Below, one piece after another: positions 10,280-22,711 of a stretch of 64,000 bases of DNA. The DNA is taken from the NCBI GenBank assembly GCA_016199525.1, contig JACQGL010000186.1:6482-70481 (forward strand), given 5' to 3'. Source of the DNA: Armatimonadota bacterium. Its GTDB lineage: Bacteria; Armatimonadota; SYMT01; JACQGL01. A program made the position numbers and the translations under genes. The first letter of the stretch is position 1, and every line of letters begins with the position of its first letter. The notes beneath the pieces are model-generated. The model was not told the origin of the DNA, made no database searches, and worked only from the letters and a program-made list of their open reading frames with translations.

Positions 10280-11158
10280 ATGGAAGAAGCACGTCGCTCC
10301 TCTGTGGCCCTGCCTGAGGCAGAGGCCCCGGAGGCGCCATTCCGCGAGCCATCCCTACCCCCTCCTGCGTCGGCTCGCAGGATGCTCCAGACGCATTCTT
10401 CTGGCAACAGCACCCTCGCTCCCGCTGATGTGCAGGGACTGCTGTGCGAGTACGCACGCAGCCGCGATCCCCGCCTGCGGGAGCGGCTCGTCCACGCCCA
10501 CGAGCGCATGGTCCGCTATCTGGCTGGCCGCTTTGGCCACGCGGCGGGGACGACCAGCGAGGACCTGATCCAGGTGGGCTACATCGGCCTCATCGCCGCC
10601 ATCGATCGTTATGATCCCAGCAAAGGAGTCAGCTTCGTCACCTACGCTGTGCCTACGATTCTGGGGGAGATCAAGCGCTACTTCCGGGACCAGACGTGGG
10701 GATTGAAGGCGCCTCGCCGGCTGCGCGAGCTGGGGCTCGCCCTGCGGCGTATTCGTGAGGAGTTGGAGCAACGTCTGGGTCGACCCCCCACGGTGAGTGA
10801 GATGGCCGCCGCCGCCAAGGTTCCCGAGGAGCGTTTACTCCAGGCAATGGATCTGGATAGGGTCTACCAGCCCGCGTCCCTCGACGCCCAGCTCACGGAT
10901 GAAACTGGTTCCGAGAAGGCCACCGCGTGGGAAGCCATTGGGGATGAAGACCCGCAGATGGCCCGCATCGAGGAACGGGAAGCCCTGCGCCGGGCGGTGG
11001 AGCGGCTGGATAATCGCCAGCGGCAGATCATCTGGCTGCGGTTCTACGAGGAGCTGTCGCAGGCGGAAGTCGCGCGGCGGATGGGAATCTCGCAGATGCA
11101 CGTCTCGCGTCTGGAGCGCCAGGCGCTCACCAAACTGCGGCTCCTGCTCTCCGCCTGA
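10280..11158 (+). CDS. Group 3 sigma-70 family factor (SigB/SigF/SigG-like)
   Basis: DLIQVGYIGLIAAIDRYDP...FVTYAVPTILGEIKRYFRD (region 2), region 3, and ISQMHVSRLERQAL (region 4.2 HTH). The start is uncertain: ATG 10280 or ATG 10382, which gives 258 aa. Confidence 0.85.
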   Translation: MEEARRSSVALPEAEAPEAPFREPSLPPPASARRMLQTHSSGNSTLAPADVQGLLCEYARSRDPRLRERLVHAHERMVRYLAGRFGHAAGTTSEDLIQVGYIGLIAAIDRYDPSKGVSFVTYAVPTILGEIKRYFRDQTWGLKAPRRLRELGLALRRIREELEQRLGRPPTVSEMAAAAKVPEERLLQAMDLDRVYQPASLDAQLTDETGSEKATAWEAIGDEDPQMARIEEREALRRAVERLDNRQRQIIWLRFYEELSQAEVARRMGISQMHVSRLERQALTKLRLLLSA

Positions 11159-21076: not shown

Positions 21077-21090
21077 CTGAGGTGCAGCCG

Positions 21091-21420
21091 ATGAAACCGG
21101 AGGAGAACGGGTTCACGCGAGAGGATCTGAAGGCCAAGCTGTTCCAGGGCTTCGCCGATCCCATCCGCATCGCCATCCTGGAGCTGCTGCGGGAGCGCGA
21201 GATGTGCGTGAGTGAGATGGCCGAGGCGGTGGGGTGCTCCCAGCCACGCATCTCTAACCACCTTGCCTGTCTGCGCTGGTGCCAGTTCGTGCAGACGCGC
21301 AAGGAGGGCAACCAGGTTATCTACTCCCTCCACGACGACCGCATCCGGAAGATCCTGGAACTGGCAGACGACCTGCTCGCCGCCAACGCCGAGCAGGTCT
21401 ATCGCTGCATCCGCATCTAA
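21091..21420 (+). CDS. ArsR/SmtB-family metalloregulatory transcription factor
   Basis: FADPIRIAILELLREREMCVSEMAEAVGCSQPRISNHLACLRWCQFV shows the wHTH (SQPxxSxHL) and candidate sensing Cys residues (CVSE, ACLRWC). Start is ATG 21091 after GAGG, or GTG 21082. Confidence 0.85.
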   Translation: MKPEENGFTREDLKAKLFQGFADPIRIAILELLREREMCVSEMAEAVGCSQPRISNHLACLRWCQFVQTRKEGNQVIYSLHDDRIRKILELADDLLAANAEQVYRCIRI

Positions 21421-21450: not shown

Positions 21451-21987
21451 ATGTCCAGCTGTTGTGCACTACCCGCCCGCAAGGAAACGCAAACCACCCT
21501 GCCCCTCTGTCCCGAGTGCAGACGGAAAGGACGACGGGTAGAGCCGGTCACGTTGAAGGCGCTGCTCCTCCCACCTGCCTTGGCGCGCCTGGAGAATACC
21601 CCTTACCACTTCTGCCCCACGCCCACCTGTCCGGTCGTCTACTTCGCTGTCGAAGCGGAGAGCATTTACCACAAGAAAGACCTGAAGGTCCGCGTCGGTC
21701 TGAAGGAGGTGGACGATCCCATTCCTGTCTGTTACTGCTTCGGGCACACCCGCACCAGCGTATGGGAAGAGATCCGCCGCACCGGCCAATCCACGGCGGT
21801 GCAGTCGATCACGGCCCACGTACAGGCTGGCCGGTGTGCGTGTGAGGTGAACAACCCGAGTGGCGCGTGCTGCCTGGGCGAGGTGAACAAGGCCGTAAAG
21901 GAAGGCATCGCGCGTCTTGGGCTGAAGTCAGGAGCCGCGCCTGTGCCGGAGGCTTTGACGCCCGCCCGATCAGGCGAGCGTGTGTAG
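21451..21987 (+). CDS. CopZ N-terminal-domain-like Cys-rich metal-binding protein (putative Zn/[2Fe-2S])
   Basis: CPECRRKG..V...T, FCPTPTCPVVYF, LKVRVGLKE..DPIPVCYCF and CEVNNPSGACC match my recollection of the Archaeoglobus CopZ N-terminal domain pattern. Confidence 0.6.
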   Translation: MSSCCALPARKETQTTLPLCPECRRKGRRVEPVTLKALLLPPALARLENTPYHFCPTPTCPVVYFAVEAESIYHKKDLKVRVGLKEVDDPIPVCYCFGHTRTSVWEEIRRTGQSTAVQSITAHVQAGRCACEVNNPSGACCLGEVNKAVKEGIARLGLKSGAAPVPEALTPARSGERV

Positions 21988-22045
21988 GCAATCATCCGCC
22001 CGGGGGTACTGGCCCCTAGACTTGCTGATGAGGAGACCCACGACT

Positions 22046-22711
22046 ATGAAGGAGAAGACTATGAAGGAGAAGCTGTCCGCCGCTGGATCGGTAGTGGCGG
22101 CCATCCTGGCATCCGCGTGTTGCATCGGGCCAGTCGTGCTGGCCGCATTGGGCGTTGGCAGTGTGGGCTTCGCTTCGACGCTGGAGCCTTACCGTCCGTA
22201 CTTTGCGGGGGTTACGTTCGTCCTGCTGGGGACCGCCTGGTACTTCGCGCTACGCAGGTCGTCCAATGTTGCCGCCCTATCTGCCGAGGACAGTGGCGCC
22301 GCGCCAAGTGCCTGCAGGGCGCCGGAGGCATGTTGCGCGCCTGCAAATGGGTGGCGACGGAACATCCTCTTGCTGACTGCCGTCACCGCCTTCGCCCTGC
22401 TGATGCTGGCCTTTCCCTGGATCAGTGGTGCGCTGGCTGGTGCGGCTAAGCCAGCTCCCAAGGCGCTCGCATCGGCACACGATACACGTACCGCGACCCT
22501 CCGGATCGAGGGTATGACCTGACCGGTGGGCTGCCCATCGAGGGTAAGAGCGGCCTTGGTCAAGGTCAACGGTTTCAATGAGGTCCGGGTCGAGTTCGCA
22601 AAGAAACAGGCGCTGGTCACCTACGACCCGGACCAGATCGCGCCGGAGAAGCTCGCCGATGCCGTTCGGAAGGGGACCGGGTTCACGGTGACTGTAGGCA
22701 GTGATAAGTAG
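22046..22711 (+). CDS. MerT-like membrane metal transporter fused to an HMA domain, interrupted by in-frame TGA at 22520-22522 (Sec candidate or pseudogene)
   Basis: The N-terminal TM helix has a vicinal Cys pair (ASACCIGPVVLAALG), and there is a second Cys-rich loop (SACRAPEACCAP). The sequence TATLRIEGMT-TGA-PVGCPSRVRAALVKVNGF...TGFTVTV then forms one HMA domain across two same-frame ORFs (21980..22522 and 22526..22711). Confidence 0.55.

What the first reader, a model, noticed from the sequence alone, without database searches (positions are those of the whole stretch)
22487..22570. In-frame UGA inside the metal-binding loop of an HMA domain: selenocysteine candidate or fresh nonsense mutation
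ORFs 21980..22522 and 22526..22711 share a frame and are separated only by TGA (22520-22522). Read through, the sequence is ...TRTATLRIEGMT-[TGA]-PVGCPSRVRAALVKVNGFNEVRVEFAKKQALVTYDPDQIAPEKLADAVRKGTGFTVTV.
- This is one complete heavy-metal-associated (HMA) ferredoxin-like domain. Strand 1 and GMT lie before the stop; the second Cys, helix 1 (CPSRVRAAL, compare MerP CPITVKKAL) and the remaining strands lie after it. Neither ORF alone encodes a foldable domain.
- The stop falls next to where the first Cys of GMTCxxC is expected. The spacing would be U-x-x-x-C, one residue longer than canonical.
- UGA at a metal or redox Cys position is the classic Sec/Cys signature.
- Two hairpins follow the UGA. 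One is at 22523-22543, about 8 bp with a bulge. The other is GGCCUU-GGUC-AAGGUC at 22552-22567, whose GU-containing apical loop starts about 35 nt after the UGA. That is near the far end of the range I recall for bacterial SECIS elements.
- TGA is an ordinary stop elsewhere in the window (for example the sigma gene at 11156-11158), so this is not a reassigned code.
- The alternative is a single-base TGC/TGT to TGA mutation or a sequencing error that pseudogenises the fusion.
Basis: partly seen in the sequence, partly recalled or inferred. Interest (0 to 1): 0.78.

Follow-up and report, generated by a model that had tools for sequence, protein, structure and literature searches.

The report
Selenocysteine codon in MerT-HMA metal transporter
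The in-frame TGA is almost certainly a genuine selenocysteine codon at a metal-binding position of a membrane metal-transport protein, and it belongs to a widespread, apparently uncatalogued family of selenium-containing metal-binding domains with an unusually spaced binding loop.

Summary
TGA 22520-22522 sits in frame between a MerT transporter and the rest of one HMA metal-binding domain, on the column of the first ligand Cys. It is not a fresh mutation. Relatives found by protein homology, only 44-49% identical, stop at the same place, and their DNA reads GMT-TGA-PVG-TGA-P. The second TGA falls where the window has TGC. A motif scan found 47 unique sequences (Planctomycetota, Armatimonadaceae and others), all with a complete in-frame HMA domain. 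The second ligand is TGA in 36 and TGC in 11. TGA is also the ordinary terminator of 19 of these genes. It pairs in 100% of cells across relatives, with compensatory changes. Sec in HMA domains (UxxU, UxxC) and in MerT (CU in TM1) is already known. The U-x3-U/C spacing and this family match no curated model above its cutoff. Main gap: the source genome's Sec machinery could not be examined. Verdict: real selenoprotein gene, a new variant of a known kind.

The parts
22046..22711 (+). Full read-through coding sequence of the MerT-HMA selenoprotein: 221 codons including Sec, terminator TAG 22709-22711. The likely start is ATG 22046, with GAGGAG at 22030-22035.
   Evidence: The public annotation splits it into P0001 (158 aa, hypothetical protein) and P0032 (51 aa, HMA domain-containing protein).
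22076..22288 (+). MerT transporter domain (residues 11-81). The TM1 Cys-Cys pair is at 22118-22123, both TGT/TGC, so there is no Sec here.
   Evidence: Pfam PF02411, 53.2 bits against a cutoff of 32.9; sequence read.
22496..22684 (+). HMA (heavy-metal-associated) domain, residues 151-213, spanning the TGA.
   Evidence: Pfam PF00403, 46.2 bits against a cutoff of 24.8. It aligns to solved ATP7B, CopA and MerP domains.
22520..22522 (+). UGA read as selenocysteine: the first metal ligand (inferred).
   Evidence: It aligns with the invariant Cys1 of GMTCxxC. Two homolog lineages found by protein homology to the upstream part also have TGA here. The 47 motif-scan sequences have it by design of the pattern, and all carry an intact in-frame HMA domain behind it.
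22532..22534 (+). TGC (Cys): the second metal ligand. The same codon is TGA in 36 of 47 unique relatives.
22552..22567 (+). Candidate SECIS hairpin: 6-bp stem GGCCUU/AAGGUC with apical loop GGUC at 22558-22561. The loop starts 35 nt after the UGA and 23 nt after the second ligand codon.
   Evidence: 100% of 60 cells pair in 10 relatives, with compensatory changes at 2 pairs, 0 of 500 shuffles reaching the observed values, and slid controls at or below 67%. The tetraloop is the same as in the E. coli fdhF SECIS. Four of the five bSECIS criteria in PMC13188914 are met; the free-energy criterion is inconclusive.
22523..22543 (+). It is not part of the element.
   Evidence: 64% of cells pair, no covariation, and the slid -3 register pairs better.
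21451..21987 (+). Upstream partner gene: a CopZ N-terminal-type zinc-finger / 2Fe-2S-like metallochaperone in its Cys-Cys form.
   Evidence: Pfam zf_CopZ 69.6 bits. NCBIfam NF047645, 136 bits against a cutoff of 100. It is fused to MerT-HMA-HMA(Sec) in a single chain in L035, and the synteny is the same in L001.
21082..21420 (+). ArsR/SmtB-family metalloregulator at the head of the putative operon.
   Evidence: Pfam HTH_5 56.2 bits. NCBIfam NF033788, 94.9 bits against a cutoff of 55. It sits in the same position in L001 and L004.

Best explanation
Bases 22046-22711 encode one 221-residue membrane protein: a three-helix MerT-type thiophilic-metal transporter fused to a MerP-like HMA domain. The first ligand of that domain's metal-binding loop is selenocysteine, encoded by UGA 22520-22522. 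The loop reads GMT-U-P-V-G-C-P, one residue longer than the canonical CxxC.

Inferred mechanism of decoding: during translation, SelB carrying Sec-tRNA(Sec) binds the mRNA hairpin at 22552-22567 (GGUC loop) and delivers Sec to the UGA 35 nt upstream, in competition with RF2 termination.

Inferred function: by the positive-inside rule and MerT topology, the HMA domain lies outside the cytoplasmic membrane. There it would capture a soft metal ion (Hg(II), Cu(I) or similar) between Se and S. The ion would then pass to the Cys-Cys pair in TM1, next to the cytoplasmic Cys cluster, and finally to the CopZ-N-terminal-type metallochaperone encoded just upstream, all under an ArsR-type sensor.

What is shown: domain content, the position of the UGA on the ligand column, conservation of the UGA and of the downstream frame, Sec/Cys alternation at the second ligand, the conserved hairpin with covariation, and gene fusion of the partner genes in a relative.

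What is inferred: actual Sec insertion, SelB binding, membrane topology, metal identity and direction of transfer.
For: - Domains and alignment. MerT and a complete HMA domain appear only when the stop is read through. The TGA lies on the invariant Cys1 column and the TGC on the Cys2 column, in 11 homologs and in solved MerP/ATP7B/CopA domains.
- Homologs found independently of the stop. P0004 (44% identical) and P0003 (49%) end at ...IEGMT. Their DNA reads TGA-CCG-GTC-GGY-TGA, followed by an intact HMA frame.
- Motif scan. There are 47 unique sequences; all but 5 chance hits carry a full in-frame HMA domain. The second ligand codon is TGA in 36 and TGC in 11. The genes' own terminators are TAG 21, TGA 19 and TAA 3.
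- Selection. dN/dS downstream of the TGA is 0.09-0.83, mostly about 0.3-0.45.
- Hairpin 22552-22567. It pairs in 100% of cells, shows 2 compensatory pairs, and 0 of 500 shuffles reached the observed values. The rival long-range fold shows no covariation beyond shuffling. The loop GGUC equals the E. coli fdhF SECIS loop.
- Published bSECIS model (PMC13188914). The criteria for loop length, stem length, a G in the first two loop positions and 16-37 nt spacing are met.
- Planctomycete-type relatives. They carry two other covarying hairpins: 91% of cells pair, 17 cells show compensatory changes, and 0 of 500 shuffles matched.
- Cys forms. No all-Cys CPVGC form was found in two searches of 5.8 billion proteins.
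- Partner genes. L035 fuses zf_CopZ, MerT, HMA(Cys) and HMA(Sec) in one chain. The ArsR-CopZ-MerT-HMA synteny is conserved.
- Sec trait in relatives. Planctomycetes including Gemmata have complete Sec gene sets (PMC4807772).
Against: - The Sec machinery (selA, selB, selC, selD) of the source Armatimonadetes MAG could not be examined. None lies in the window or in about 345 kb of related loci, and I found no literature on the Sec trait in Armatimonadetes.
- In this sequence alone the structure is unremarkable: z = 0.04. The hairpin alone is -6.5 kcal/mol, weaker than the -7.5 cutoff of the model, and 12% of synonymous recodings fold at least as well.
- The 35-nt spacing is near the upper limit of the model and about twice that of E. 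coli fdhF (18 nt).
- The covariation rests on about four independent lineages for the window-type hairpin.
- No Rfam family matches.
- The motif scan required TGA at the first position, so the invariance of that position among the scan hits is partly by design.
- There is no experimental evidence of any kind.
Confidence: 0.85

Rival explanations
1. Relic selenoprotein gene. The gene descends from a real selenoprotein family, but this organism has lost Sec decoding. Translation would then stop at 22522 to give a MerT-only protein, or the UGA would be read at low level by near-cognate tRNAs.
For: The Sec machinery is untested for this genome. The second ligand has already changed from Sec to Cys here (TGC), which could be a step towards losing Sec. 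MerT-only homologs without HMA exist and are presumably functional (P0011, P0013, P0018-P0022).
Against: The downstream 63 codons are intact and are more conserved than the rest of the protein: 63% identity to L008 against 49% for the whole protein. The hairpin is retained base for base. The same U...C state occurs in 11 unique sequences from several lineages, so it is a stable state and not a decay intermediate.
Confidence: 0.08
2. Fresh nonsense mutation, or a sequencing or assembly error, converting TGC/TGT to TGA and pseudogenising a MerT-HMA fusion.
For: A single base change would be enough. The source is a metagenome-assembled genome.
Against: The identical TGA at the identical column occurs in independent assemblies from different samples and phyla, and it is accompanied by a second TGA four codons later in most of them. 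The loop spacing (x3) differs from canonical CxxC homologs, so this is not a simple point mutant of a CxxC gene. No all-Cys CPVGC form was found.
Confidence: 0.03
3. Two separate polypeptides, or a reassigned genetic code: either MerT ends at GMT and a separate HMA fragment starts at GTG 22526, or TGA codes for Trp or Gly in this lineage.
For: Public annotation calls two genes (P0001, P0032). One JGI gene call translates the homologous TGAs as Trp (P0033, GMTWPNGWP).
Against: The split would cut the domain between strand 1 and the metal loop, leaving neither part foldable. Relatives with a second TGA have no usable start between the two stops. TGA is the true terminator of 19 of 43 complete family genes, and of many ORFs in the window. 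Trp or Gly at both metal-ligand positions would abolish metal binding.
Confidence: 0.02

Closest known systems
NCBIfam NF041115 'UxxU_metal_bind' metal-binding (seleno)protein. Also the HMA-bearing selenoproteins listed in reviews: cation-transporting ATPase (UxxC) and putative mercuric reductase (UxxU), in PMC9312934.
   Same: Sec replaces the ligand Cys residues in the metal-binding loop of an HMA-type fold. Sec/Cys alternation is seen.
   Different: Those have the canonical two-residue spacing. Here the loop is U-P-V-G-U/C, with three residues between the ligands. Family members score 39-69 bits against a cutoff of 95. The domain here is fused to MerT or carries a lipoprotein signal.
NCBIfam NF045683 'MerT/CopZ fusion-like heavy metal transport selenoprotein', and the 'putative mercuric transport protein' selenoprotein of GOS and Carboxydothermus (PMC2398784, PMC9312934; Haft preprint 10.1101/2022.07.06.499078).
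   Same: A MerT-type transporter that is a selenoprotein. NF045683 has the same MerT plus HMA/CopZ-like architecture.
   Different: In the GOS sequences the Sec is in the TM1 'CU' motif (...RPCUTLPL...), and Haft describes a CU motif for MerT selenoproteins. Here TM1 is Cys-Cys and the Sec is in the HMA loop. The score is 79.5 bits against a cutoff of 375.
MerTP fusion (NCBIfam NF033556), and MerT plus periplasmic MerP of mer operons (solved MerP structure 1afi).
   Same: A three-helix MerT with a CC pair in TM1 and a C-terminal MerP-like HMA domain. The presumed relay runs from an external binding domain to the membrane Cys pairs.
   Different: The score is 121 bits against a cutoff of 180. 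It has Sec and a longer loop in place of GMTCxxC. There is no merA nearby, and the regulator is ArsR-type, not MerR. The partner is a CopZ-N-terminal-type chaperone.
E. coli fdhF SECIS
   Same: A coding-region hairpin 3' of the UGA with the identical apical tetraloop GGUC.
   Different: The spacing is 35 nt against 18 nt. There is no bulged U in the 6-bp stem. In relatives the same hairpin lies downstream of two UGA codons 12 nt apart.

Membership tests
Bacterial selenoprotein gene (Sec-UGA plus bSECIS) | In-frame UGA aligned with Cys in homologs | tested here: met
   The TGA column is the invariant Cys1 in 11 MerT-HMA homologs and in solved HMA domains.
Bacterial selenoprotein gene (Sec-UGA plus bSECIS) | Protein-level conservation on both sides of the UGA, and the UGA itself conserved in orthologs | tested here: met
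   (47 unique sequences). dN/dS is below 1 downstream of the UGA.
Bacterial selenoprotein gene (Sec-UGA plus bSECIS) | bSECIS geometry: 3-9 nt loop, 4-16 bp stem, G in the first two loop positions, 16-37 nt from the UGA (PMC13188914) | tested here: met
   4-nt loop GGUC, 6-bp stem, 35 nt spacing. Conserved, with compensatory changes.
Bacterial selenoprotein gene (Sec-UGA plus bSECIS) | bSECIS free energy of -7.5 kcal/mol or lower | tested here: inconclusive
   The hairpin alone is -6.5 kcal/mol. The region nt 4-60, which includes it, is -16.6. Relatives range from -6.4 to -10.8.
Bacterial selenoprotein gene (Sec-UGA plus bSECIS) | selA, selB, selD and tRNA-Sec present in the same genome | not testable with these tools
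   None is in the window or the fetched loci.
Bacterial selenoprotein gene (Sec-UGA plus bSECIS) | Selenium demonstrated in the protein | not testable with these tools
   Requires 75Se labelling or mass spectrometry.
HMA domain (Pfam PF00403) | Profile score above the gathering cutoff | tested here: met
   46.2 bits against 24.8.
HMA domain (Pfam PF00403) | Canonical GMTCxxC metal loop | tested here: not met
   The loop is GMT-U-PVG-C, one residue longer and with Sec at the first ligand.
MerT (Pfam PF02411) | Profile score above the cutoff, and a Cys-Cys pair in TM1 | tested here: met
   53.2 bits against 32.9. CC at residues 25-26.
NCBIfam NF033556 MerTP fusion | Score of 180 bits or more | tested here: not met
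   121.1 bits.
NCBIfam NF045683 MerT/CopZ fusion-like selenoprotein | Score of 375 bits or more | tested here: not met
   79.5 bits.
NCBIfam NF041115 UxxU metal-binding (seleno)protein | Score of 95 bits or more, and U-x-x-U spacing | tested here: not met
   56.7 bits for the window protein and 39-69 bits for six relatives. The spacing is x3.
MerT selenoprotein of GOS / Carboxydothermus type | Sec in the TM1 'CU' motif | tested here: not met
   The GOS sequences read ...RPCUTLPL.... The window has ...SACCIGP..., encoded by TGT TGC.

The most novel reading that the evidence does not exclude
This gene represents an undescribed selenoprotein domain family: an HMA/MerP-like fold with an expanded U-x3-U/C metal loop.
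- The first ligand appears to be obligately Sec, since no all-Cys form was found.
- The family is widespread in Planctomycetota and Armatimonadota.
- It occurs as MerT fusions, as exported lipoproteins and as multi-domain chains carrying up to four Sec residues.
- Its two UGA codons, 12 nt apart, are served either by one GGUC hairpin (the window type) or by two successive hairpins (the Planctomycete type).
- The extra loop residue may be an adaptation to the larger selenium atoms in a two-coordinate metal site.
Probability: 0.5. Interest if true: 0.65.

Novelty: new variant of a known kind. Interest (0 to 1): 0.55.

Why it matters
- Annotation. The public record splits this gene into a "hypothetical protein" and a 51-residue "HMA domain-containing protein". 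Dozens of relatives are truncated in the same way, or mistranslated with Trp. A family model would repair the annotation across Planctomycetota, Armatimonadota and metagenomes.
- Metal chemistry. Selenolate ligands bind soft metals such as Hg and Cu more tightly than thiolates. An extracytoplasmic Sec-containing capture domain wired to a MerT channel and a cytoplasmic chaperone would be a high-affinity uptake or detoxification relay. It could be relevant to mercury and copper cycling in groundwater and hot-spring communities.
- Decoding mechanism. Tandem UGA codons 12 nt apart, with one or two SECIS hairpins, offer a natural test of how strictly bacterial SelB measures the UGA-to-SECIS distance.

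Tried and rejected
- Rfam at gathering and at permissive thresholds found no SECIS or other relevant family.
- ARAGORN found no tRNA-Sec in the window.
- tblastn of E. coli SelA, SelB and SelD against the window and all fetched loci gave no hit.
- The look-up of encoding contigs for the window's own ORF found it not on record, so the remainder of the source contig and MAG could not be reached.
- A GC3-based scan of the window for other in-frame TGA genes was not discriminating in this 67% GC sequence and gave no credible second candidate.
- Single-sequence folding statistics were not significant for the window.
- The MFE long-range fold pairing UGACC (nt 1-5) with GGUCA (nt 39-43) was rejected: its outer pairs are invariant and so uninformative, its inner pairs break, and its covariation does not exceed shuffles.
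Ligand positions were anchored by sequence alignment to solved HMA structures instead.
- The GOS 'MerP' selenoprotein was considered as a possible prior description. Its sequence (...GTUCQSG...) is unrelated to this motif.
- A mercury-resistance operon reading was considered. There is no merA next to the gene in the window. Among 114 flanking ORFs of relatives, no family typical of MerA appears in the 25 most frequent families listed.

Full report
**Observation.** The window sequence reads ...GAG GGT ATG ACC TGA CCG GTG GGC TGC CCA... with TGA at 22520-22522, in frame. The frame continues to TAG at 22709-22711. With Cys substituted for the stop, Pfam finds MerT (residues 11-81, 53.2 bits) and a single complete HMA domain (residues 151-213, 46.2 bits) that straddles the stop. 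The 61-residue downstream ORF alone matches only HMA profile positions 11-61. The likely start is ATG 22046, preceded by GAGGAG, and it matches the public 158-residue annotation. It is not the GTG at 21980 that the mechanical ORF list gives. The neighbours upstream are an ArsR-family regulator (21082-21420) and a CopZ-N-terminal-type zinc-finger / 2Fe-2S-like protein (21451-21987). The source is annotated publicly as an Armatimonadetes MAG. There the gene is split into a hypothetical protein (P0001) and an "HMA domain-containing protein" of 51 residues (P0032).

**Is it a mutation?** No. A protein search with the read-through product returned homologs that were not selected for the stop. P0004 (44% identical) ends ...TLRIEGMT. 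P0003 (49% identical) has a normal first HMA domain (GMTCEAC) and a second one ending ...LGIEGMT. Their DNA reads TGA CCG GTC GGY TGA CCN, that is GMT-U-PVG-U-P, followed by an intact HMA frame. The second TGA lies exactly where the window has TGC. The L001 lineage has the same gene order: ArsR, CopZ-type, MerT, HMA.

I then scanned the metagenome and genome collections for GGNATGWSNTGACCNRTNGGNTGMCC, which gave 33 and 21 loci. Five are chance matches in non-coding-like contexts, about the number expected for a pattern of this information content. All the others show a complete in-frame HMA domain after the stop or stops. Collapsing duplicates leaves 47 unique sequences. The second ligand codon is TGA in 36 and TGC in 11. 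The genes' own terminators are TAG 21, TGA 19 and TAA 3, and four run off the fetched DNA. TGA is therefore both an ordinary terminator and an internal sense codon within the same genes, which rules out a reassigned code. The named genomes are mostly Planctomycetota (including Gemmataceae), plus Armatimonadaceae and a Polyangiaceae MAG.

**Position in the fold.** An alignment with 11 MerT-HMA homologs places the TGA on the invariant first Cys and the TGC on the invariant second Cys. The window has a one-residue insertion between them. HMMER alignments to solved ATP7B, CopA and MerP domains show the same thing (MerP 1afi, E = 1.4e-10). dN/dS for the 52 codons after the motif is below 1 in all ten pairs tested, mostly about 0.3-0.45. 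The downstream part is more conserved than the protein as a whole.

Two searches of 5.8 billion proteins, using Cys-substituted domains of the window type and the Planctomycete type, found no all-Cys CPVGC form. The hits were only fragments downstream of the motif, plus one JGI call that translates both TGAs as Trp (GMTWPNGWP). The first ligand thus looks obligately Sec in this subfamily. One caveat applies: the DNA scan required TGA at that position.

**RNA.** Taken alone, the window sequence does not fold better than shuffles (z = 0.04). The 22552-22567 hairpin is only -6.5 kcal/mol, and 12% of synonymous recodings fold at least as well. The comparative data give the real support.

In ten window-type sequences (alignment A1, nt 1 = U of the first UGA), the stem 33-38/43-48 pairs in 100% of 60 cells. 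Compensatory changes occur at two pairs (G-C to C-G, and U-A to C-G). The second of these couples a Lys-to-Arg change to a synonymous Leu change. No shuffle out of 500 reached the observed pairing or covariation score, and slid registers pair at 67% or less. The loop GGUC is invariant. It is the same tetraloop as in the E. coli fdhF SECIS, which I read from the E. coli genome (nt 22-25).

Against the published bSECIS model (PMC13188914, Fig. 2 legend), loop length, stem length, G in the first two loop positions and spacing (35 nt; 23 nt from the second ligand codon) are all met. The free-energy criterion is borderline. The MFE alternative that pairs the UGA itself with GGUCA is not supported by covariation.

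Planctomycete-type members use a different design, with two hairpins at nt 22-40 and 44-60. Both are supported: 91% of cells pair, 17 cells carry compensatory changes, and 0 of 500 shuffles matched. Their loops lie 25 nt from the first UGA and 35 nt from the second. Rfam has no matching family.

**Mechanism and function.** The best reading is SelB/SECIS-dependent insertion of Sec at residue 159. This gives a 221-residue MerT-HMA protein whose external HMA domain binds a soft metal between Se and S. Positive residues at the N-terminus and in the TM2-TM3 loop predict a C-terminus outside the membrane, as for MerP. Most relatives carry lipoprotein-type signal peptides.

The link to the upstream CopZ-type gene is supported by conserved synteny. 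It is also supported by L035, where zf_CopZ, MerT, HMA(CxxC) and HMA(UPVGU) form one chain. A census of 114 flanking ORFs shows MerR-family regulators (4), DUF3179 (5; itself listed as a selenoprotein family in PMC9312934), AhpC/redoxins and RND efflux components. No family typical of MerA appears among the 25 most frequent families listed. The metal and the direction of transport remain inferred.

**Comparison with what is known.** Sec in metal-handling proteins is established:
- cation ATPase (UxxC), putative mercuric reductase (UxxU) and a putative mercuric transport protein (PMC9312934, PMC13188914);
- NCBIfam models for UxxU metal-binding selenoproteins (NF041115) and MerT/CopZ fusion-like selenoproteins (NF045683).

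The window protein and six relatives fall below every one of these cutoffs. The previously described MerT selenoproteins carry Sec in the TM1 CU motif (GOS sequences; Haft preprint), whereas TM1 here is Cys-Cys. The GOS "MerP" reads are unrelated to this motif. What is new is therefore the U-x3-U/C loop and the family that carries it, not the principle.

**Limits.** I could not examine the Sec machinery of the source genome. Nothing is in the window or the fetched loci, the MAG's other contigs were unreachable, and the literature held here says nothing about Armatimonadetes. It does report complete Sec gene sets in several Planctomycetes, including Gemmata (PMC4807772). There are no experimental data.

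**Verdict.** This is a real selenoprotein gene with a supported SECIS candidate (confidence about 0.85). It is a new variant of a known kind, of moderate interest.

Noticed in passing
L001:444-1106 (TGA at 609-611 and 618-620): A second candidate selenoprotein in the same operon of the hot-spring-type relative. It has a signal peptide, then ...ITQAG-TGA-AG-TGA-GGVAKT... (U-x-x-U), then about 160 more in-frame residues. Gene callers split it into 55-aa and 159-aa ORFs. A hairpin GGCGGU-GUGGCGAAA-ACCGCC follows the stops. There was no NCBIfam hit. The window has no equivalent gene.
   Followed up: partly
L036 (minus strand) and L044 (minus strand), about 270 nt downstream of the UPVGU motif: The same ORF continues through two more in-frame TGAs...FHVTGMKKTKSGAT-TGA-VG-TGA-PNKVTEAL... 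This is a second HMA-like module with a U-x-x-U loop, so one polypeptide would carry four Sec residues. Database fragments P0047-P0049 end at the same ...SGAT, and P0038/P0039 end at ...SVQGLT.
   Followed up: partly
L035 (minus strand), whole ORF of about 507 codons: A single-chain fusion of zf_CopZ, MerT, HMA(GMTCEGC) and HMA(GMT-U-PVG-U). It links the window's two adjacent genes functionally.
   Followed up: yes
Protein P0033 (JGI metagenome gene call): The homologous loop is translated GMTWPNGWPP. The gene caller evidently read both TGAs as Trp. This is a second way, besides truncation, in which this family is mis-annotated. It also shows a PNG variant of the PVG spacer.
   Followed up: partly
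L042:584-700 (Planctomycetia MAG NC_groundwater_66): This U...C copy has an in-frame TAG inside the HMA domain (...YVTVQ*DKWNEKALL...), while a paralog in the same MAG (L058) is intact at that position. It is probably a pseudogenised copy or an assembly error.
   Followed up: no
Flanks of L0xx loci (114 ORFs, alignment A4): DUF3179 proteins flank the Sec-HMA gene at 5 loci. DUF3179 is itself listed as a selenoprotein family (UxxC/T) in PMC9312934. I did not check whether these copies carry in-frame TGA.
   Followed up: no
L019, L050, L056, L031, L043 (downstream of the HMA module): The Sec-HMA module is fused to varied C-terminal extensions. L019 has a PDZ/DegP-like region. L050 has a weak, below-cutoff DsbD_N match. 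The L043 extension is unidentified.
   Followed up: partly
L046 and L060 (Armatimonadaceae MAG YX3bin16, two contigs): There are two near-identical copies of the same Sec-HMA gene in one MAG. The upstream reading frame differs in L060, which suggests a duplicated or mis-assembled region.
   Followed up: no
window:18065-18271 (minus strand): tRNA-Gly(TCC) and tRNA-Pro(TGG) lie adjacent. They are the only RNA genes detected in the window, and there is no tRNA-Sec.
   Followed up: yes
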